DNA from: a virus
Lineage: Duplodnaviria; Heunggongvirae; Uroviricota; Caudoviricetes
Virus record (IMG/VR): IMGVR_UViG_2799113139_000004
Length of the DNA stretch: 64,000 nucleotides
Direction: 5' to 3' (one strand)
Both the position numbers and the translations under genes were made by a program. How positions within the stretch are numbered: position 1 is the stretch's first letter; every line of letters starts with the position of its first letter. The notes beneath the pieces were generated by a model, which made no database searches, was not told where the DNA came from, and worked only from the letters and a program-made list of their open reading frames with translations. Shown piece by piece: positions 833 through 61,863 of this stretch.

Positions 833-1046
833 GTGAAACCCCTTCTACTCTCTCGGTCGTCGGTAGCTAGTAGTTAGCACCGTCTCATGGAGGAGATTCT
901 ACTGGTTTATGCGCTAGTGACTAGTGGTTGCTGAAGCCTATAACACCACAGCTCAACATGTGGGCTTTGGTTAGTCCGCGCGTTTGAAGTGCTAGTAACT
1001 TCGCTGGCGCGCCTAATCCAGTGGTTGACAGTCATAGTGCTAGTAA
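833..1046. promoter_or_regulatory. Divergent repressor/cro switch region with multiple CTAGTA/TCTACT operator half-sites
   Basis: 214-bp intergenic region between oppositely oriented HTH genes. Repeated half-sites are present (ttctactctc, ctagtagtta, attctactgg, ctagtgactagtgg, gctagtaact, gctagtaatt). Confidence 0.5.
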
Positions 1047-1400
1047 TTGATGATCAACGCATCCCGTTCAATCATCAGTCACCTCGTCTTCGAGGGGCGA
1101 AGGAGCGCAACCGTGGGCCGCAACGTCACATCAGTACAGGTCAAAGACCTGGGGCTGTTGCGGCACCTCGTAGGACCGGAGCCGGGCAAAGTGATGTCTG
1201 CGACGACGCTTGCACGTCGAATCGGCAGGCACCGTTCGTTTGTCGGGCATCTACTCAGTGGCGACCCTGATCGCTGCCGCACGTTCTCGGTTGAAGTGGC
1301 ACAAGCTATTTCGGTGGCGCTCGGCGTCAAGATGTCGCTACTTTTTCAGCCCGCGATATCAACCAGTAGACCTATAAATGTCTACCATGAGGCCGGCTGA
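1047..1400 (+). CDS. Cro-like HTH DNA-binding protein
   Basis: 117-aa ORF with an HTH segment (MSATTLARRIGRHRSFVGHLLSG), divergent from the repressor. The true start is uncertain. Confidence 0.5.
   Translation: MMINASRSIISHLVFEGRRSATVGRNVTSVQVKDLGLLRHLVGPEPGKVMSATTLARRIGRHRSFVGHLLSGDPDRCRTFSVEVAQAISVALGVKMSLLFQPAISTSRPINVYHEAG
1354..1378 (+). promoter_or_regulatory. First copy of the 25-bp element CGATATCAACCAGTAGACCTATAAA
   Basis: Lies within the 3' end of the Cro-like ORF, immediately upstream of the excisionase-like/methyltransferase operon. Confidence 0.45.
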
Positions 1401-6237: not shown

Positions 6238-7286
6238 CCGAATCAGGTGATCTCTTCGACGGTCCGATGAGTTCAGCGCCCACCGACGCTGGACCCAAGC
6301 GCGATCACTTCGGTGTGTACCGCAACGGCAACAACCAACCGCTGATCATGACGCCCGAGGGCGACAAGCGACTGGCCTACCAGCGCACGACATTGTTCAT
6401 CGAGCATCTGGAGGACGGCAGCAGCGACGGCCTGCGCATCTGGCAAGAGCGCCTGACGCTGATGGGTCTCATTCAGTCCGCGGAGCTGCGCGCGGAACTG
6501 ATGGCGTGGAACGGCGAACTGCGCGACCTCACCGACATCGCCAAGCGCGCAGCGCGTCTGGCTGGCCGCGACGAGAAGCAGGAATGGGGGTCGATGATGC
6601 ACCAGATCACCGACGCCTTGGACCGCGGCGACATGATGCCGCGCGAGTGGTGGAACGAGAACACGAAGTCATTCGAGCCCGTACCGCCGGAAGCCCGTCG
6701 CGACGCGGACGCCTATCAGATGGCTACGCGCTGTCTTGAGCATGAGCTGGCTGAGCACATGCACGTGTACGACGAATACCGTGTGGCCGGCACCCCTGAC
6801 CGGCGATCTCGGTACAAGTCCCGCGGCAAGGTGGTCGGTCGGCCCAAGATCGTTGACCTGAAGACCGGCACGTTGCATCCGCGCATGGTCGAAGCACAGC
6901 TTGCGATGTACGCGCACAGCACCCCGTACGACGTCGAGAACGAGGTTCGCGAGGACTACGGGCCAGTAGACATCAAGCGCGGCATCGTGATCCACCTACC
7001 GATGCAGCAGGCCACGTGTGAACTGCACTGGGCCGATCTAACGAAGGGGTGGAACGACTGCAAGATTGCGCGTGAGAAGCATCAGAAGGGCTTGCGCCGC
7101 AAGCTCGAAGCGCTCGGGCGCATCGTCGAGCTAGGGCCGGATATCCCGCTGACTGACCGAATCAGCTTGGCATGCAACGTCGAGGCCCTACGAGACGTGT
7201 GGACCGAGGCATCTCAACGCGGTGAACTGACCGATGGATTCAAGGCCGCGATCAAGGAGCGTCTGACCCGCCTGGGTGCAGCGTAG
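6234..7286 (+). CDS. PD-(D/E)xK nuclease, Cas4/RecB-family exonuclease-like
   Basis: IVDLKTG motif matches the RecB/Cas4 (I/V)DYKTG motif, followed by a QLAMYAH (QhxxY) motif. GTG at 6234 overlaps the upstream stop (alternative ATG at 6267). Confidence 0.55.
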   Translation: MTESGDLFDGPMSSAPTDAGPKRDHFGVYRNGNNQPLIMTPEGDKRLAYQRTTLFIEHLEDGSSDGLRIWQERLTLMGLIQSAELRAELMAWNGELRDLTDIAKRAARLAGRDEKQEWGSMMHQITDALDRGDMMPREWWNENTKSFEPVPPEARRDADAYQMATRCLEHELAEHMHVYDEYRVAGTPDRRSRYKSRGKVVGRPKIVDLKTGTLHPRMVEAQLAMYAHSTPYDVENEVREDYGPVDIKRGIVIHLPMQQATCELHWADLTKGWNDCKIAREKHQKGLRRKLEALGRIVELGPDIPLTDRISLACNVEALRDVWTEASQRGELTDGFKAAIKERLTRLGAA

Positions 7287-12943: not shown

Positions 12944-13034
12944 TACACATCACCCAGTAGTTCATAGATGTAGTAGAGTGCTCTACTAGCCGAGCTTCGG
13001 CACATCACAACAATCCCAGCGGAAGAGGGACGAA
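12944..13034. promoter_or_regulatory. Regulatory region with palindromic operator TAGTAGAGTGCTCTACTA and GGTGAT..ATCACC inverted repeat
   Basis: The palindrome at 12971-12988 matches the consensus seen at 58577-58596 and 61535-61554. An A/C-rich leader plus SD lies upstream of 13035. Confidence 0.5.
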
Positions 13035-56940: not shown

Positions 56941-57159
56941 TCAGTCGGCGCTCGGTGTGTAGTTGTCCATCCAGCCATCCTGGACACCCTCGGCGTACGC
57001 GTGGGCCGCCTCTGGCCAGCCGTCATGCCTCTTGGGTCCAGGATCAGCGGCCCAGCGATGGGGGATAGACACCGCACCAGGGAACTTGTCTCGATACAGC
57101 GCCCTCTTCTTGCCGACCTCGTACCCCTCGACGTACGGCTCACTTTGCTTGTTAGTCAT
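56941..57159 (-). CDS. Hypothetical protein
   Basis: 72 aa; start overlaps the stop of the upstream ADP-ribosylglycohydrolase gene on the minus strand. Confidence 0.4.
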   Translation of the reverse strand: MTNKQSEPYVEGYEVGKKRALYRDKFPGAVSIPHRWAADPGPKRHDGWPEAAHAYAEGVQDGWMDNYTPSAD

Positions 57160-58181
57160 CAGAACTCATACCCTTCTGCTTCCAGGATCTCTTGCTGGTA
57201 GCGCGGTTCGAGCCGCGCGAACCACTCGGCAGGCCACGGGTCATCGTGAATAGCACCGAGAATGGAGCCAGCGACAGCAGCGATCGAATCGCTGTCACCG
57301 TTGGTCACGGTCGCGCGACGCAGCGCCGCAATGGGGTCATCAGGAAACAGGTCAGCGCACAGCAGCGCGGTCGAGAGTGCGTGTTGCGCACGCCAACCTT
57401 CGCCCGCCAGTTCGCATGGGTCAAAGCTCCATGGGTCCAGTTCGGACCGTCGAATGGTGTTGAGCGCGATGTCAGCATCGACCAGAGCGTCAGCGATCGC
57501 GAGTAGCCCGCGCGTGATGAACCGACGTACACCGTCCTCGTAAGCGGGACCGTAGTAGTCGGCGTTCTCACCGATCCATTCGTCCAGTCCGGTCAGAAGC
57601 GAATCGTCGGCATCGTTGATCGCGTCGAGTGTCATCCCAAGCGCGAACGCGACTGCCTCACCCGGTGCTGGCCTCATGCGAATGAGGGCAGCAGCGACAA
57701 GAGATGCAGCGACACCCGATGCCTTGCCGTGAGTCGAAATCGCCTGCCACGCAGCGATTCCCTGCCAGCTCTTCGGATCACTGGTGAACGCAGCAGGACT
57801 GACGCGCATAACGGTTCCGCAACCGTCCGAACCTTCAACTGAAGCGTCGAGCCAGTCGATGCCAGCCTTCATCGCACCGATGGCGCGCATGCACGTGTTG
57901 CCAGGTGCGCGATTGTTGTCCGGGTCACTGAACCATTCGATCCACTCAGCGATGACGTCTTCGCGAATCTCGCTGTCGGTCTTGTTGCCTGCATCGTTGA
58001 GCGCACGCGCGAGCGCGAGTGTCATCTGAGTGTCGTCGCTGATGACCAGCTTCTCGGGAAGATTCGGCCCGAGGGGGCTACCCTTCGTCAGCTCGGCATA
58101 GCTTCTGAACTCGTTCTTGTACCCCCACGCGTCGCCATAGGCGACACCGCGGAGCACGTTCGACCATTTGCGCTTGTCCAT
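57159..58181 (-). CDS. ADP-ribosylglycohydrolase (ARH/DraG family)
   Basis: GVAYGDAWGY and ISDDTQMTLA match ADP-ribosylglycohydrolase family signatures; 340 aa. Confidence 0.75.
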   Translation of the reverse strand: MDKRKWSNVLRGVAYGDAWGYKNEFRSYAELTKGSPLGPNLPEKLVISDDTQMTLALARALNDAGNKTDSEIREDVIAEWIEWFSDPDNNRAPGNTCMRAIGAMKAGIDWLDASVEGSDGCGTVMRVSPAAFTSDPKSWQGIAAWQAISTHGKASGVAASLVAAALIRMRPAPGEAVAFALGMTLDAINDADDSLLTGLDEWIGENADYYGPAYEDGVRRFITRGLLAIADALVDADIALNTIRRSELDPWSFDPCELAGEGWRAQHALSTALLCADLFPDDPIAALRRATVTNGDSDSIAAVAGSILGAIHDDPWPAEWFARLEPRYQQEILEAEGYEF

Positions 58182-58545: not shown

Positions 58546-58648
58546 CACTAGTAGAACTGTCTACTACTCTAGCAGACTAGTAGACATGTCTACTAGGTGG
58601 TTGCGAGAATGACCTGCAGGTTCGTTGCTCCTTAGTAGACACGCCTAC
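58546..58648. promoter_or_regulatory. Operator cluster: TAGTAGAACTGTCTACTA, perfect palindrome CTAGTAGACATGTCTACTAG, and TAGTAGACACGCCTAC
   Basis: Three copies of the TAGTAGAC..GTCTACTA motif in a divergent intergenic region (58532-58690). Confidence 0.6.
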
Positions 58649-58690
58649 CGATCGCGGAACTAGACTGAGAGGCGAGATCTGGAGGACACT

Positions 58691-59065
58691 ATGACGATGG
58701 CGGCATCCCCACCGACGAACGCAACAGCCTGGTTGCGTGACAATGGCATCGAACTATCGCGCCCAATGCAGGCGCGCTTCACTGACGCATTCAACGACCT
58801 TGTAGAGCGCTACACCGAGCAGTCTGAGCGGCCAATGCGCGACGCGTCGATCATGGCCGCAGCGCGCTATCTGGCCGGTGAACTGACGCTCGAAGAGGCC
58901 GGCAGTGCGCTGGAGAAGGTCAGAGCGAAGGCCGAGGTCGCGATGGCAGTCACCCGCATCGTGACGCTGCTGTCGCTCGACGATGATTCCGTGAGTGAGT
59001 ACGGCGCGCAGCGTGCGGCCCGCGTGGATCGTATGACGATACGCAAATGGCAGGGCAAGCGATGA
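58691..59065 (+). CDS. Hypothetical protein with C-terminal Xis-like HTH
   Basis: ARVDRMTIRKWQGK resembles the HTH of the 21100 and 1378 genes; divergent from the minus-strand cassette. Confidence 0.45.
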   Translation: MTMAASPPTNATAWLRDNGIELSRPMQARFTDAFNDLVERYTEQSERPMRDASIMAAARYLAGELTLEEAGSALEKVRAKAEVAMAVTRIVTLLSLDDDSVSEYGAQRAARVDRMTIRKWQGKR

Positions 59066-59343: not shown

Positions 59344-59496
59344 ATGAGCGTGGGCGGGCAACCGGCTTGGCCCTGCGCGACCTGCGGAGGTCTAATGACC
59401 GTCAAGGGCAACTACGCGTACAACAGCAAGGATGAACCTGTTCACAACACCGTTTGGTGTTCTGACCTAGTTTCCGAGCTTTATGCGCCACAGTGA
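59344..59496 (+). CDS. Small zinc-ribbon protein (50 aa; not in ORF track)
   Basis: Product MSVGGQPAWPCATCGGLMTVKGNYAYNSKDEPVHNTVWCSDLVSELYAPQ; followed by a terminator. Confidence 0.4.
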   Translation: MSVGGQPAWPCATCGGLMTVKGNYAYNSKDEPVHNTVWCSDLVSELYAPQ

Positions 59497-59512
59497 CGAA
59501 ATACGTTGATAC

Positions 59513-59555
59513 AGAAGCACCCCCGAGAATTTATCTCGGGGGTGCTTCTTCGTTT
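59513..59555. terminator. Bidirectional rho-independent terminator
   Basis: GAAGCACCCCCGAGA-loop-TCTCGGGGGTGCTTC followed by TTCGTTT; sits between convergent genes. Confidence 0.7.
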
Positions 59556-59563
59556 GGTGACTG

Positions 59564-60997
59564 TTACACGTCCGCGTGTAGACGGTAGTACGAGTCATCA
59601 TCATTGAGATCCTTGACCTTGGTGCTGTTCAGGGTCTCTCGGATGACGTCCTGGATCTGATCGTCGATCGAGAAGCCGGTCTCACCTTCGTCAGCTTCGT
59701 ACTGAGCACGAAGCTGGTTGTGTAGTGAGATCGCAGCGCCGACCAGATCGGAGGTGTCGAGCTTGTAGTCAACACCGCCACCCAGACGCCCGATGGCGTA
59801 CGTCTTAGCCCGCTCCAGAGCCTCGCGCACGAACGCCGGGTAGAAGCCGACCGCTTCACCGTTCACGTTGATCGTCATGGCCTCGTAAACCTTGTCGTAG
59901 TCAACGTCATCGGCCAGGCGGTTCGGAGCGACCACGGCGCGCACCAGGCGCTCAGTGCCGTTGCGATCCAGCGCGGCGACCTCCACGACAGCATCGATGC
60001 GACCAGGGCGAAGCATGCCCTTGTGGATTCGCTCGAAGTGGTTGGTCGTCATCAGAAGCGCCAGCTCGGAACCCTTCGACGTCACGCCGTCGAACGACTC
60101 CAGCAGCTTGGACACCTCATCCGAGTCGCCGGTAGACGCCTGGTTGTCCACGTCCTCGATGAACACCACCGCGGGCTGGTACAGCTTGGCCGTCTTCAGG
60201 ACCTCGTTGATGTTGTCACCAGGACGCGACGCGATGAACGTCCAGCCGCTCGCAACCGCTTCGAGCGCGGTCAACTGACCAGCGGAGGTCTTTCCGGTGC
60301 CGTACGGGCCTTCCAGCAGCAGCGCGCGCTTGATACGCACACCTTCGCTCTTGAGCACTTCACGGTGACGGATGACCGACCACAGGGTGCCCTCCAAGGT
60401 GCTCATCACCTCGTCGGAGAAGACGATCTCCTCGGGTTTGACGCTCGACAGGTTCAGGAACTCTGGTTCCTCGGTGCCGACGATCGCCTGACCGCGATAG
60501 ATCGAGTTCGTCTTCAGCTCTTGACCGATGGCGTCCAGGAACTCAACCGCCTTGGGAGAGTTCTTCTTTGCTGTGATCACGCTGATGTACGCGATCATCC
60601 CGTGCTCGCGATCCCGTGTGCCAGACACCATGATGACGCCACCATCGCCGAGCGACGGGACATACACCCGACCCCAGGGGACCTCCAGTGTTTCGGTGGC
60701 AGAGATCTGCACCGTGCGCGTCTCCGGTGGCTCCGGCGGTGAGAAGAAGCCGCCCGGAGTTGGCATGCCGATGGTGATACCGAACATGCGCTTCATAACG
60801 CGCTGCGCTGCCACCGCCCCATCGAACGGACGGAACTGGTAGGTCCGCTTCTTCTCCATCATCGTCTCGGCCTCATCCTGCATTCGCTGCAAGATGTCCT
60901 TGGCGCGACCGTAAGTGATGTTGCGCGGCAACACAATATCGGTCTTATCGTGGAAAGTGACCTCATCACCGGTGATGATCTCGTCGTCCTTCATGGT
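59564..60997 (-). CDS. AAA+ ATPase (classic AAA clade) with N-terminal domain of unknown function
   Basis: Walker A (GPYGTGKT), Walker B (VVFIEDVD), SRH/arginine finger (TTNHFERIHKGMLRPGRID). Start at the internal Met with SD (gagaaagagagaacc ATG). The ORF track extends to 61153. Confidence 0.7.
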   Translation of the reverse strand, partial: TMKDDEIITGDEVTFHDKTDIVLPRNITYGRAKDILQRMQDEAETMMEKKRTYQFRPFDGAVAAQRVMKRMFGITIGMPTPGGFFSPPEPPETRTVQISATETLEVPWGRVYVPSLGDGGVIMVSGTRDREHGMIAYISVITAKKNSPKAVEFLDAIGQELKTNSIYRGQAIVGTEEPEFLNLSSVKPEEIVFSDEVMSTLEGTLWSVIRHREVLKSEGVRIKRALLLEGPYGTGKTSAGQLTALEAVASGWTFIASRPGDNINEVLKTAKLYQPAVVFIEDVDNQASTGDSDEVSKLLESFDGVTSKGSELALLMTTNHFERIHKGMLRPGRIDAVVEVAALDRNGTERLVRAVVAPNRLADDVDYDKVYEAMTINVNGEAVGFYPAFVREALERAKTYAIGRLGGGVDYKLDTSDLVGAAISLHNQLRAQYEADEGETGFSIDDQIQDVIRETLNSTKVKDLNDDDSYYRLHADV

Positions 60998-61237
60998 TCT
61001 CTCTTTCTCTATTCCGCTGGATATCTGTTGTTGGTCGGCACCCCCACCCGCCATGGTTTCCAGGTGGGGGTGCCGTGCCGAACTGACCTGGGAGATCGTC
61101 AGATCAGTCGGCGAATGTTGATGTCGTGAGCCAGACAGGAGTCCCGCGCCCAATGATCACTTTGCGCGCTAGCTCGCGTCCTTACCGTGATCGCGACCAA
61201 CGTAATCACATTCGCGACAAGCGAATTCGAGGGGACC

Positions 61238-61269
61238 AGGTGGTCGAGATTGCTCCCGACCACCTGGCG
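61238..61269. promoter_or_regulatory. Perfect inverted repeat CCAGGTGGTCG-N10-CGACCACCTGG
   Basis: 11-bp arms; lies just past the stop of the minus-strand 61274-61465 gene. Confidence 0.35.
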
Positions 61270-61273
61270 TCTG

Positions 61274-61465
61274 CTAGTTGGTCAGCAGATCTTCGCCTTG
61301 CTCGATTTGCTCAAGCTCTGTCTCCAGTCGTTGCACCTCGGCAACGAGAGCACGAAGCTCGCGTTTGCGATTTGCAATCTTCTGGGTGACGACTCTGCGC
61401 CGCTGGCGCAGAGTAGCAAGAGCCTCGTCGCGGCTCATCCCCTCGGGAAGTTGAATCATGTTCAC
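61274..61465 (-). CDS. Small coiled-coil protein
   Basis: 63 aa; start GGAGG SD-like (aggaggtgaac ATG on the minus strand). Confidence 0.45.
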   Translation of the reverse strand: MNMIQLPEGMSRDEALATLRQRRRVVTQKIANRKRELRALVAEVQRLETELEQIEQGEDLLTN

Positions 61466-61534
61466 CTCCTTCTGTTTCCGCTAGTCGTTGTTGTGATTGA
61501 CACCTTGTCGGTGTCGTCTTCGACAGTAGCACAG

Positions 61535-61652
61535 CTAGTAGACAAGTCTACTGGTTTGACGAGTATTTCTATGAACTAGTGATAAATGGTACGTCTACTG
61601 CTGGACCTATGCGGCAGGTTTCAGCAGATAGTAGACTGATCTACCATCTACC
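61535..61652. promoter_or_regulatory. Operator cluster: CTAGTAGACAAGTCTACTGG, GTCTACTG half-site, and TAGTAGACTGATCTAC
   Basis: Same motif family as at 58546-58648 and 12971-12988; divergent intergenic region 61466-61671. Confidence 0.55.
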
Positions 61653-61671
61653 CCGAGAGAAGGAGGACGAC

Positions 61672-61863
61672 ATGTCCGAGATCATTCGTTTGCGTGACGA
61701 TGACGGTGACCAGCTCGTCGTTGAGCACGAAGGCAAGGCCCAGCACTTCACGTTTCGAGTGGTGGACCCGGACGGTAATCACATGGCCGCCTACGTGCCC
61801 TATGCCGACGCGGCCGCGCTGGTGACGACGATCAGCGAGACCTTGACGGAGGCGGTGGGGTGA
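61672..61863 (+). CDS. Hypothetical protein
   Basis: ATG with a strong SD (gagaaggaggacgac ATG); 63 aa. Confidence 0.5.
   Translation: MSEIIRLRDDDGDQLVVEHEGKAQHFTFRVVDPDGNHMAAYVPYADAAALVTTISETLTEAVG

What the first reader, a model, noticed from the sequence alone, without database searches (positions are those of the whole stretch)
59564..60997. Standalone AAA+ ATPase moron on the minus strand, bounded by a terminator and an operator-bearing control region
A classical AAA-clade ATPase (GPYGTGKT, VVFIEDVD, TTNHFERIHKGMLRPGRID) has a 180-aa N-terminal domain of unknown function. It is transcribed against the flanking genes, ends at a bidirectional terminator (59513-59555), and lies downstream of the 61274-61465 gene and the 61535-61652 operator cluster. 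The layout suggests a lysogen-expressed accessory function such as superinfection exclusion, abortive infection or substrate remodelling, not a core replication gene.
Basis: inference. Interest (0 to 1): 0.55.

Follow-up and report, generated by a model that had tools for sequence, protein, structure and literature searches.

The report
Bcs1/YjoB-like AAA ATPase in a prophage
This Mycobacterium abscessus prophage gene is already annotated as an AAA-ATPase; it resembles the chaperones Bcs1 and YjoB, which handle folded proteins, more than a protein-unfolding motor, and its family also occurs in strictly lytic phages, so calling it a lysogen defence gene is only partly justified.

Summary
The window is Mycobacterium phage prophiFSQJ01-1, a cluster MabR prophage of M. 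abscessus. The finding is its gene 95, annotated "AAA-ATPase".

**What holds up**
- The gene, its motifs and the 3' hairpin are real.
- The upstream 61-aa gene is real. The conflicting GenBank + strand gene is spurious.
- The operator cluster is real.
- The true start is ATG 60994, not 60997.

**What it most resembles**
- The Walker B motif is an invariant E-D instead of D-E. The YjoB paper reports this as exceptional to Bcs1 and YjoB.
- Pore loop 1 is short and has no aromatic residue.
- The best full-length structure matches are Bcs1 and YjoB.
- This points to a ring chaperone for folded clients, not a threading unfoldase.

**Lysogen expression and the moron label**
- Published RNA-seq lists the McProf ortholog and its small upstream gene as expressed in lysogeny.
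- The same two-domain family has about 1,000 clusters at 50% identity.
- It also occurs in virulent N4-like phages and in apparently non-temperate Gordonia phages.
- It has no conserved partner gene.
- Its base composition matches the rest of the phage.

So "lysogen-expressed" is supported. "Defence moron" is neither shown nor favoured. The biological client is unknown. Verdict: new member of a known kind, moderate interest.

The parts
59564..60994 (-). AAA-ATPase gene (GenBank gp95), 476 aa plus stop. N-terminal domain residues 1-185, AAA domain about 186-410, C-terminal helices to 456.
   Evidence: Conserved start. AF2 model pLDDT 87.6. PHROG 10440 matched full length, E 4e-70.
60440..60994 (-). 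N-terminal alpha/beta domain: three helices plus about eight strands, no transmembrane segment.
60287..60310 (-). Walker A, GPYGTGKT (residues 229-236).
   Evidence: Invariant.
60146..60169 (-). Walker B, VVFIEDVD (residues 276-283), with E280-D281 in place of the usual D-E: the Bcs1/YjoB signature.
   Evidence: Invariant in the 43-sequence alignment and in N4-like phage homologs. Bcs1 has LLEDVD. YjoB has VLVIED, and its E280Q and D281N mutants are inactive (PMC9565160).
59993..60049 (-). Sensor 1 and second region of homology, TTNHFERIHKGMLRPGRID (N318, R329, R332).
   Evidence: Aligns to Bcs1 [20 protein letters not shown].
59513..59549 (.). Hairpin between the convergent + strand genes (ending at 59496) and the AAA gene. 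Likely bidirectional terminator.
   Evidence: 16-bp perfect stem, -34.8 kcal/mol, z -7.8. Conserved in McProf, L008 and L009. Function as a terminator is inferred.
61036..61075 (-). GC-rich hairpin (13-bp perfect arms, 14-nt loop) about 40 nt upstream of the AAA start codon.
   Evidence: -37.3 kcal/mol, z -5.3. Orthologs carry a different sequence that also forms a GC-rich hairpin at the same place.
61151..61210 (-). Non-coding core, highly conserved, between the two upstream hairpins. Candidate promoter or leader of the AAA gene, or a small RNA.
   Evidence: 85-100% identity in 20-nt windows against three MabR prophages. ORFs across it carry stops in orthologs. No Rfam match.
61236..61267 (-). 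Hairpin immediately after the stop codon of the small gene.
   Evidence: -29.6 kcal/mol, z -6.0. Structure kept in orthologs despite 62-66% sequence identity.
61274..61459 (-). Small basic coiled-coil protein gene, 61 aa (equivalent to McProf gp92). Start is ATG 61459, after AGGAGG.
   Evidence: 82-88% amino-acid identity with an open frame in orthologs (one has a stop at codon 3). The opposite-strand GenBank gp96 has stops in all orthologs. Found only in MabR prophages.
61537..61645 (.). Operator cluster in the divergent control region 61460-61671: palindromes at 61537-61552 and 61630-61645, plus a half-site at 61593-61599.
   Evidence: Same position in McProf. Region GC 0.476 against 0.609 for the window.
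58550..58649 (.). Second cluster of the same palindrome (three sites), between gp90 (-) and the HTH gene gp91 (+).
   Evidence: Same position in McProf.
58691..59065 (+). Helix-turn-helix protein gp91, candidate binder of the palindromes.
   Evidence: PHROG 2311 'HTH DNA binding protein', E 3.9e-19. Adjacent to operator cluster 1. Binding is inferred, not shown.

Best explanation

**Proposed mechanism (inferred by analogy)**
- A ring of N-terminal alpha/beta domains sits on a ring of AAA domains and encloses a chamber.
- ATP binding and hydrolysis at the E-D Walker B site open and close that chamber.
- The machine thereby holds, releases or hands over a folded client protein. It does not thread an unfolded chain through a pore.

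**Transcription in MabR prophages**
- The gene is a leftward unit with its own conserved 5' non-coding region and a hairpin on each side.
- It is transcribed in lysogens (published for the ortholog).
- It lies next to a divergent control region carrying 16-bp palindromes. The same palindromes occur at the promoter of a nearby HTH gene, so that HTH protein probably co-regulates both regions (inferred).

**Biological role**
- The same two-domain protein is kept by virulent N4-like phages in their early/middle gene regions.
- Its basic job is therefore probably to chaperone or neutralise a particular phage or host protein early in infection. That job is retained or co-opted in the lysogen.
- The client is unknown.
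For: **Shown**
- Classical AAA motifs are present and Pfam AAA scores above threshold.
- E280-D281 are invariant in 43 family members and in N4-like phage homologs.
- PMC9565160 states that Bcs1 and YjoB 'exceptionally' carry ED in Walker B, and that YjoB E280Q and D281N are inactive.
- Foldseek of the full-length AF2 model (pLDDT 87.6) ranks Bcs1 and YjoB first, with E from 4e-16 to about 1e-13 and alignments of 416-448 columns. Rpt, Cdc48 and FtsH align over about 250-340 columns.
- hhalign of the family profile against mammalian BCS1 gives probability 98.7, E 3e-16 and 35% identity. The alignment shares EDVD, MTTNH and a short pore-loop-1 segment without an aromatic residue.
- The secondary-structure content of the N-terminal domain (three helices plus an antiparallel sheet) matches the published description of the YjoB NTD, as do the two short strands and two helices before Walker A.
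- Weak BFVD matches of the N-terminal domain alone go to the N-termini of other viral AAA ATPases, several of them named BCS1.
- There is no transmembrane segment.
- The family is large and its architecture is fixed.
- McProf gp91 and gp92 are listed as expressed in lysogeny (PMC9434293; PMC8191103).
- Operators and hairpins are real and conserved.

**Inferred**
- Ring and chamber assembly, action on a folded client, regulation by the HTH protein, and an early-infection role.
Against: - The N-terminal domain shows no sequence similarity to Bcs1_N or to any PDB chain.
- Foldseek TM-scores for the full-length matches are low (0.30-0.46) with high rmsd. The two-domain match could therefore be partly an alignment artefact.
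- By sequence score the AAA domain matches Cdc48/p97 and PAN about as well as it matches Bcs1.
- Oligomeric state, ATPase activity and client were not tested.
- Expression evidence comes from an ortholog with 76% amino-acid identity and from a summary sentence, not from read counts that I could inspect.
Confidence: 0.5

Rival explanations
1. It is a prophage-encoded defence or superinfection-exclusion protein. In the lysogen the ATPase senses or disables a component of an incoming heterotypic phage, or triggers abortive infection.
For: - The ortholog is expressed in lysogeny.
- It lies in the right arm with other lysogen-expressed cassettes: the WXG-100 toxin/immunity genes and the ADP-ribosyl glycohydrolase.
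- It gives a weak AAA-domain match to the defence ATPase IetA (PADLOC 4.6e-7; NCBIfam IteA 24.8 bits).
Against: - The IetA match covers only the generic AAA core and falls far below the cut-off (24.8 against 510 bits).
- No protease, nuclease or other effector gene is next to it.
- No neighbour is conserved in 80 related loci; the commonest occurs in 8 of 80.
- The family is present full-length in virulent N4-like phages and in Fryberger, which has no annotated integrase.
- The gene is conserved in all MabR prophages rather than varying between them (PMC9434293).
- Its base composition matches the phage.
Confidence: 0.2
2. It is a virion-assembly chaperone or translocase that loads large folded cargo proteins into procapsids. 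This is the role proposed for BCS1 orthologs of jumbo phages.
For: - Iyer et al. 2021 (PMC7824862) report BCS1 orthologs in jumbo phages and propose that they translocate folded proteins packaged into the head.
- The family occurs in N4-like phages, which package a giant virion RNA polymerase (established knowledge).
- This prophage encodes a 1,170-aa minor-capsid/ADP-ribosyltransferase fusion, gp54.
Against: - The gene lies outside the late structural operon and on the opposite strand.
- In N4-like phages and most metagenomic loci it sits among early or DNA-metabolism genes, such as a PD-(D/E)XK nuclease, AAA_25 and DUF932.
- The ortholog is transcribed in lysogens, where no virions are built.
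- There is no membrane anchor.
Confidence: 0.12
3. It is a conventional threading unfoldase of the Cdc48/PAN/FtsH type that feeds host or phage proteins to a protease.
For: The best sequence matches in the PDB are Cdc48/p97/VAT and PAN. NCBIfam's weak best matches are PAN and CDC48. Many database records name homologs 'FtsH-like' or '26S proteasome subunit'.
Against: - Pore loop 1 is three residues shorter than in Cdc48 and has no aromatic-hydrophobic-Gly motif. It reads ASRPGD-NINE here, and the family consensus is KPGRDK.
- Walker B is ED.
- There is no protease domain, no OB or double-psi-barrel N-domain, and no conserved C-terminal HbYX motif.
- All curated family scores are far below their cut-offs.
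Confidence: 0.08
4. It services a neighbouring module of this prophage. Either it acts as a loader for the phage-encoded DNA polymerase III beta clamp (gp84), or it acts as an EccA-like chaperone for type VII secretion of the WXG-100 toxin (gp100-102).
For: The clamp, the AAA-ATPase and the toxin cassette all lie in the same 10-kb right arm and are shared by MabR prophages. There is a marginal PHROG clamp-loader match, E 0.006.
Against: - The protein belongs to the classical AAA clade (SRH motif, Pfam AAA). It does not belong to the clamp-loader clade or to the CbbX-type EccA group.
- It has no TPR N-domain.
- The family is widespread in Gram-negative phages, which have neither an ESX system nor a phage-encoded clamp nearby.
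- Neither module is a conserved neighbour.
Confidence: 0.04

Closest known systems
Bacillus subtilis YjoB (PDB 7W42), a soluble hexameric AAA chaperone
   Same: - Both are single AAA domains of the classical clade preceded by an alpha/beta N-terminal domain of about 160-185 aa with no sequence relatives.
- Both have ED in Walker B.
- Both have a short pore loop without an aromatic residue.
- Both are soluble, with no transmembrane helix.
- YjoB is among the top Foldseek matches, aligned over both domains (E 7e-14, TMq 0.46).
   Different: - No sequence similarity is detectable in the N-terminal domain.
- YjoB is a sigma-W stress protein reported as conserved in Bacillales (its abstract says class Bacilli), not a phage protein.
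- Its clients (KatA, GapB) have no known relevance here.
- Ring formation and chaperone activity of gp95 are untested.
Mitochondrial Bcs1 (PDB 6SH3, 6UKO), a heptameric translocase of the folded Rieske protein
   Same: - Bcs1 structures are the best full-length Foldseek matches (E 4e-16).
- The core is 35% identical and shares EDVD, MTTNH and RPGR(I/V)D.
- Both have an N-terminal domain directly ahead of the AAA domain.
   Different: - Bcs1 is anchored by an N-terminal transmembrane helix; gp95 has none.
- Pfam Bcs1_N is not matched.
- There is no membrane-translocation context.
BCS1 orthologs noted computationally in jumbo phages (Iyer et al. 2021, PMC7824862)
   Same: Both are phage-encoded Bcs1-type AAA ATPases of unknown role. 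Weak or partial matches to jumbo phages appear.
   Different: - Whether those jumbo-phage proteins belong to this exact family was not tested.
- Matches to PA5oct-like jumbo phages cover only the AAA domain at 24% identity.
- The role proposed for them is in virion assembly.
IetA, the AAA ATPase of the Iet (IetAS) anti-phage system
   Same: A classical-type AAA core. It is the only hit in the defence library.
   Different: - Scores are far below family thresholds.
- The match is limited to the AAA core (residues 187-360).
- No IetS protease gene is nearby.
Cdc48/p97/VAT and PAN/Rpt unfoldases
   Same: Same clade and the best raw sequence scores.
   Different: gp95 has a single ring, no aromatic pore loop, ED in Walker B and a different N-terminal domain.

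Membership tests
Classical AAA clade (Pfam PF00004) | Walker A GxxGxGK[ST], and a Pfam AAA score above the gathering threshold | tested here: met
   GPYGTGKT is present. PF00004 scores 55.8 bits against a cut-off of 21.2.
Classical AAA clade (Pfam PF00004) | Second region of homology: sensor-1 Asn followed by two arginines (xTNxxxxLDxAxxRPGRxD) | tested here: met
   TTNHFERIHKGMLRPGRID is present. N318, R329 and R332 are invariant.
Classical AAA clade (Pfam PF00004) | Walker B hhhhDE | tested here: not met
   The order is inverted, VVFIED, and this is invariant across the family. It is the known Bcs1/YjoB variant and is catalytically competent in YjoB (PMC9565160).
Bcs1/YjoB-type AAA chaperones | ED instead of DE in Walker B | tested here: met
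   E280-D281 in gp95. Bcs1 has LLEDVD. YjoB has VLVIED.
Bcs1/YjoB-type AAA chaperones | Bcs1-type alpha/beta N-terminal ('middle') domain directly preceding the AAA domain | tested here: inconclusive
Bcs1/YjoB-type AAA chaperones | Hexameric or heptameric double ring enclosing a chamber; nucleotide-gated binding of folded clients | not testable with these tools
   Needs SEC-MALS or cryo-EM, and client-binding assays.
Bcs1 proper (mitochondrial translocase) | N-terminal transmembrane anchor | tested here: not met
   The maximum Kyte-Doolittle 19-residue hydropathy is 0.96, so there is no hydrophobic helix.
Threading AAA unfoldases (Cdc48, PAN/Rpt, FtsH) | Pore loop 1 with an aromatic-hydrophobic-Gly motif | tested here: not met
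   The segment 'ASRPGD...NINE' aligns to Cdc48 'SKMAGESESNL' or 'SMWFGESESNI' with a 3-residue deletion and no aromatic residue. The family consensus is KPGRDK.
Threading AAA unfoldases (Cdc48, PAN/Rpt, FtsH) | Family-specific accessory parts: a double-psi-barrel or OB N-domain, an HbYX tail, or an M41 protease domain | tested here: not met
   The N-terminal domain has a generic alpha+beta fold. The C-terminus is not conserved. There are no other Pfam domains. NCBIfam scores are 22-61 bits against cut-offs of 280-1008.
Iet anti-phage system (IetA + IetS) | IetA-family ATPase above the family threshold | tested here: not met
   NCBIfam NF042959 scores 24.8 bits against 510. The PADLOC IetA hit of 27.6 bits covers the AAA core only.
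Iet anti-phage system (IetA + IetS) | Adjacent subtilisin-like protease IetS | tested here: not met
   The neighbours are small hypothetical genes, an HTH gene and a membrane protein.
Phage 'moron' (independently transcribed accessory gene expressed from the prophage) | Own terminator and own promoter, and expression in the lysogen | tested here: inconclusive
   The flanking hairpins are strong and conserved. No promoter was identified. Lysogenic expression is published for the McProf ortholog only.
Phage 'moron' (independently transcribed accessory gene expressed from the prophage) | Atypical base composition or patchy presence among close relatives, indicating recent acquisition | tested here: not met
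   GC is 0.604 against 0.609 for the window, and GC3 is 0.79 against 0.75-0.80 for other phage genes. The gene is present in all five MabR GenBank records and is reported as shared by all MabR genomes (PMC9434293).

The most novel reading that the evidence does not exclude
The Bcs1/YjoB-like phage ATPases could be a widespread, uncharacterised class of phage 'capture chaperones' that enclose and neutralise a specific folded protein.
- In virulent phages the target would be a host factor or immune protein.
- In MabR lysogens the target would be an ejected protein of superinfecting phages, or a host regulator. The second option could contribute to the McProf-dependent whiB7 and aminoglycoside-resistance phenotype.
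- In the prophage the gene would belong to a small regulon run by a dedicated HTH protein through 16-bp palindromes. That regulon would also control the ADP-ribosyl glycohydrolase cassette.
Probability: 0.15. Interest if true: 0.7.

Novelty: new member of a known kind. Interest (0 to 1): 0.4.

Why it matters
**The family**
- About 1,000 clusters at 50% identity share this fixed two-domain architecture.
- They occur in virulent N4-like phages, in the large Delftia phage phiW-14, in uncultured metagenomic phages of 460-595 kb and in actinobacteriophages.
- None has an assigned function.

**What the re-classification changes**
- Placing the family with Bcs1 and YjoB gives a testable mechanism: a chamber chaperone for folded clients.
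- It also warns against database names such as 'FtsH', '26S proteasome subunit' and 'metalloprotease'.

**Relevance to Mycobacterium abscessus**
- The ortholog is one of only 16 prophage genes expressed in a lysogen whose prophage raises intrinsic aminoglycoside resistance.
- It is therefore a reasonable candidate to test.

**Annotation and regulation**
- The analysis corrects three GenBank calls:
  - gp96 is spurious.
  - gp94 is dubious.
  - The start codons of the McProf and FVLQ01-1 AAA genes are over-extended.
- It also points to a local operator/HTH circuit.

Tried and rejected
- **Known defence protein.** Only weak IetA hits on the AAA core. Rejected as membership.
- **Conserved partner gene.**
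  - ORFs from 80 IMG/VR loci were clustered, and no neighbour family occurs in more than 8 loci.
  - The small upstream gene is confined to MabR prophages.
- **Consistent antisense or 'moron' orientation across the family.**
  - Orientation is mixed. In 26 of 78 loci the gene is co-oriented with both neighbours.
  - My ORF caller is crude, so this is only indicative.
- **N-terminal domain by sequence.** No Pfam family and no PDB sequence.
- **N-terminal domain by fold.**
  - BFVD gave weak hits to other viral AAA N-termini.
  - The afdb50 library was unavailable.
- **Known RNA family in the conserved 5' region.** No Rfam match; the only weak hits fall on the terminator hairpin.
- **Coding potential of the conserved block.** Both ORFs across it carry stops in orthologs.
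- **Palindromes as immunity-repressor operators.** The repressor/cro intergenic region (window about 833-1112) carries a different repeat, GCTAGTA-type. No cluster of the AGTAGAC palindrome lies there.
- **Sigma-70-type promoter scan.** Nothing upstream of the AAA gene or the small gene.
- **Expression values.** No supplementary files are held for PMC8191103.
- **Later functional work on McProf gp91.** None found.
Full report
**Identity of the window and the gene**

The region 59400-61800 is 100% identical to BK061312.1, Mycobacterium phage prophiFSQJ01-1. This is a prophage of Mycobacteroides abscessus. About 79% identical DNA occurs in McProf (from M. chelonae) and three other prophages. These form cluster MabR (PMC9434293).

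The finding is GenBank gene 95, 'AAA-ATPase'.
- The ATG is at 60994, not 60997.
- That ATG, with its upstream purine-rich stretch, is the start conserved among MabR prophages. Sequence upstream of it diverges with indels that do not keep the frame.
- The protein is therefore 476 aa, and the 525-526-aa versions annotated for McProf and FVLQ01-1 are over-extended.

**Surroundings**

The gene runs leftward. It converges on the rightward genes gp91-gp93, which end at 59496. Between them lies a 16-bp perfect hairpin at 59513-59549 (-34.8 kcal/mol, z = -7.8). Orthologs keep this hairpin.

Upstream there is a 61-aa basic coiled-coil gene at 61274-61459 (-).
- Its ATG lies 5 nt after AGGAGG.
- Orthologs keep the frame open at 82-88% amino-acid identity.
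- GenBank's overlapping + strand 'gp96 membrane protein' has stop codons in every ortholog.

Two further strong hairpins lie between this small gene and the AAA gene.
- One is at 61236-61267, directly after the stop codon of the small gene.
- The other is at 61036-61075, about 40 nt before the AAA start.
- Both are kept as structures in orthologs although their sequences differ.

Between the two hairpins lies a non-coding core at 61151-61210.
- It is 85-100% identical in 20-nt windows across MabR prophages.
- It holds no conserved ORF and matches no Rfam family.
- The AAA gene thus looks like a unit with its own 5' control region. Co-transcription with the small gene is possible but not established.

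**The operators**

The 16-bp palindrome AGTAGAC-NN-GTCTACT occurs 9 times at up to 3 mismatches, against 1.07 expected. Six of these fall in two AT-richer divergent intergenic regions.
- One is 61537-61645, between the small gene and the rightward gene. The conserved part of that rightward gene starts at about 61672.
- The other is 58550-58649, between gp90 and the helix-turn-helix gene gp91.
- McProf carries GGTAGAC-NN-GTCTACC-like sites at the same two places.
- The repressor/cro region has a different repeat.

The simplest reading is a local regulon of the gp91 HTH protein. This is an inference.

**What kind of AAA ATPase**

Sequence searches place the AAA domain in the classical clade.
- Pfam AAA scores above threshold.
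- The best PDB sequence matches are Cdc48/p97/VAT and PAN.
- Every curated family score is far below its cut-off.

Three features separate it from threading unfoldases.
- *Walker B.* It reads VVFIED, so Glu-Asp replaces Asp-Glu. This is invariant in 43 relatives and in N4-like phage homologs.
- *Pore loop 1.* The segment is three residues shorter than in Cdc48 and has no aromatic residue.
- *Whole-protein fold.* Foldseek of a confident AlphaFold model (pLDDT 87.6) ranks mitochondrial Bcs1 and Bacillus subtilis YjoB first. Those alignments cover 416-448 columns, so they include the N-terminal domain. Proteasomal Rpt subunits, Cdc48 and FtsH rank lower and align over the AAA domain only.

The YjoB structure paper supports the link.
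- It states that Bcs1 and YjoB are exceptional among classical AAA proteins in carrying ED in Walker B.
- It shows that both residues are needed for ATPase activity.
- It describes both proteins as rings whose N-terminal domains cap an internal chamber used to hold folded clients (PMC9565160).

I also tested a mammalian BCS1 sequence.
- I recalled it from memory, then validated it. It matches mouse Bcs1 of 6UKO almost residue for residue over 418 residues (E 1e-277).
- It aligns to the family profile with probability 98.7, E 3e-16 and 35% identity.
- The alignment shares EDVD, MTTNH and the short aromatic-free loop.

**Limits of that assignment**

- The N-terminal domain has no detectable sequence relatives outside the family.
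- BFVD gives only weak matches, though several are to N-termini of viral proteins named BCS1.
- TM-scores of the full-length matches are low, 0.30-0.46.
- gp95 has no transmembrane helix, so in this respect it resembles YjoB and not Bcs1.

I file it as Bcs1/YjoB-like, not as a Bcs1 ortholog.

**Distribution and context**

The family is large.
- More than 950 proteins matched in the word-indexed search; all 120 listed cover at least 90% of the query.
- A profile of the N-terminal domain alone finds 1,258 clusters at 50% identity. Apart from shorter entries that look like fragments, they are mostly 470-530 aa, with the domain at or near the N-terminus.

In annotated phages, matches covering most of the protein (82-96% coverage, about 30% identity) occur in several groups:
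- virulent N4-like podophages: Escherichia phage Pollock, Erwinia phages Frozen and Ea9-2, Klebsiella phage Pylas, Salmonella phages FSL SP-058 and SP-076, and Pseudomonas phages Zuri and Littlefix
- Pseudomonas phage KPP25
- Delftia phage phiW-14
- uncultured metagenomic phages of 460-595 kb
- Gordonia phages of genus Ronaldovirus, at 52% identity

I aligned only the Pollock and Frozen proteins residue by residue. They share both domains, including the ED motif and the N-domain motifs.

Position varies with the phage.
- In Pollock and Frozen the gene is co-oriented with the early/middle genes, near RNA polymerase 2, the helicase and the DNA polymerase.
- In Fryberger it forms a reverse-oriented three-gene cassette between the tail assembly chaperone and the tape measure gene. 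No integrase or repressor is annotated anywhere in that genome.
- In Gordonia bronchialis a 70% identical copy sits in a long run of co-oriented small genes.

Across 80 IMG/VR loci I found no conserved neighbour, and orientation was mixed. The recurrent neighbours that could be named are DNA-metabolism genes.

In this prophage the gene has the same GC and GC3 as the other phage genes. It is reported as shared by all MabR genomes (PMC9434293).

**Expression**

The McProf RNA-seq study reports 16 prophage genes expressed in lysogeny. [quoted passage not shown] The later MabR paper names gp91 (the AAA-ATPase) and gp92 (the small gene) among them. I could not see read counts. I found no later functional work.

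**Interpretation**

- 'Lysogen-expressed' has published support for the ortholog.
- 'Substrate remodelling' is the part of the interpretation that the protein features back. They back a specific form of it: a Bcs1/YjoB-type chamber chaperone for folded clients, not an unfoldase.
- 'Moron' and 'defence' are not supported. The composition is native, the gene is core to the cluster, the family thrives in virulent phages, and there is neither a defence-family membership nor an effector partner.

A defence or exclusion role in the lysogen remains possible; I put it at about 0.2. So does the virion cargo-loading role proposed for jumbo-phage BCS1 orthologs (PMC7824862). The gene's position and its lysogenic expression argue against that second role.

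The client, and hence the biological function, is unknown. The decisive experiments are listed separately.

**Novelty**

The gene is already annotated and has been mentioned in two papers, and BCS1-type ATPases have been noted in jumbo phages. New here are:
- the assignment of this large phage family to the Bcs1/YjoB type
- its span from virulent Gram-negative podophages to temperate actinophages
- the local operator circuit and the conserved leader
- the annotation corrections

This is a new member of a known kind and of moderate interest.

Noticed in passing
window 58550-58649 and 61537-61645; McProf locus L002 6179-6220 and 9821-9928: Two clusters of the 16-bp palindrome AGTAGAC-NN-GTCTACT sit in two divergent intergenic regions 3 kb apart. 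One flanks the HTH gene gp91 (58691-59065). This suggests a local HTH regulon distinct from the immunity repressor. The regions control the leftward ADP-ribosyl glycohydrolase cassette and the leftward small-gene/AAA region.
   Followed up: partly
window 61151-61210 (minus strand): A 60-nt non-coding core between two hairpins is 85-100% identical across MabR prophages, while the flanking hairpins diverge in sequence. It has no conserved ORF, no Rfam match and no obvious promoter.
   Followed up: partly
window 61250-61579 (+), GenBank gp96 'membrane protein': This annotated gene is probably spurious. Its frame has stop codons in all orthologous prophages, whereas the 61-aa gene on the opposite strand (61274-61459) is conserved.
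   Followed up: yes
window 59493-59588 (+), GenBank gp94: This 31-aa annotated ORF overlaps the terminator hairpin and the 3' end of the AAA gene, so it is likely not a gene.
   Followed up: no
window 61579-61863 (+), GenBank gp97: Conservation with orthologs starts only at the internal Met (MSE..., about 61672), which follows GAAGGAGG. The annotated GTG start at 61579 is probably too far upstream, and it would run through the operator region.
   Followed up: partly
window 29146-32658 (record 30993-34505, gp54) and window 57159-58181 (gp88): The phage encodes a 1,170-aa minor-capsid/ADP-ribosyltransferase fusion, likely ejected with the DNA. It also encodes an ADP-ribosyl glycohydrolase on the lysogen side (Pfam E 4e-45), whose McProf ortholog is listed as expressed in lysogeny. 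These could form a toxin/antidote or superinfection-related pair.
   Followed up: no
window 12972-12987: A perfect palindrome AGTAGAG-TG-CTCTACT, related to the operator motif, lies in the gap between gp24 (primase/polymerase) and gp25 of the early operon.
   Followed up: no
L008 about 6267-6285 and L009 about 6587-6600: In two other MabR prophages an extra GGTAGAC-NN-(T/C)TCTAC(C) palindrome sits just downstream of the AAA terminator hairpin.
   Followed up: no
window 833-1112 (repressor/cro intergenic region): This region carries repeated GCTAGTA-type motifs (for example GCTAGTAGTTAGC, GTGCTAGTAAC and GTGCTAGTAATTG). They are likely the immunity-repressor operators. They share the CTAGTA core with the flanks of the AGTAGAC palindromes.
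   Followed up: no
L003 7781-10401 (Gordonia phage Fryberger genes 48-50): The AAA homolog and two hypothetical genes with no Pfam match form a reverse-oriented cassette between the tail assembly chaperone and tape measure genes. The phage has no annotated integrase.
   Followed up: partly
L006 18021-19628 (Gordonia bronchialis prophage-like region): A TROVE (Ro60-like) plus VWA protein is encoded 7 kb from the AAA homolog. Proteins with a vWA-like MIDAS motif (no Pfam match at E <= 0.001) recur near the AAA gene in 5 of 80 metagenomic loci.
   Followed up: no
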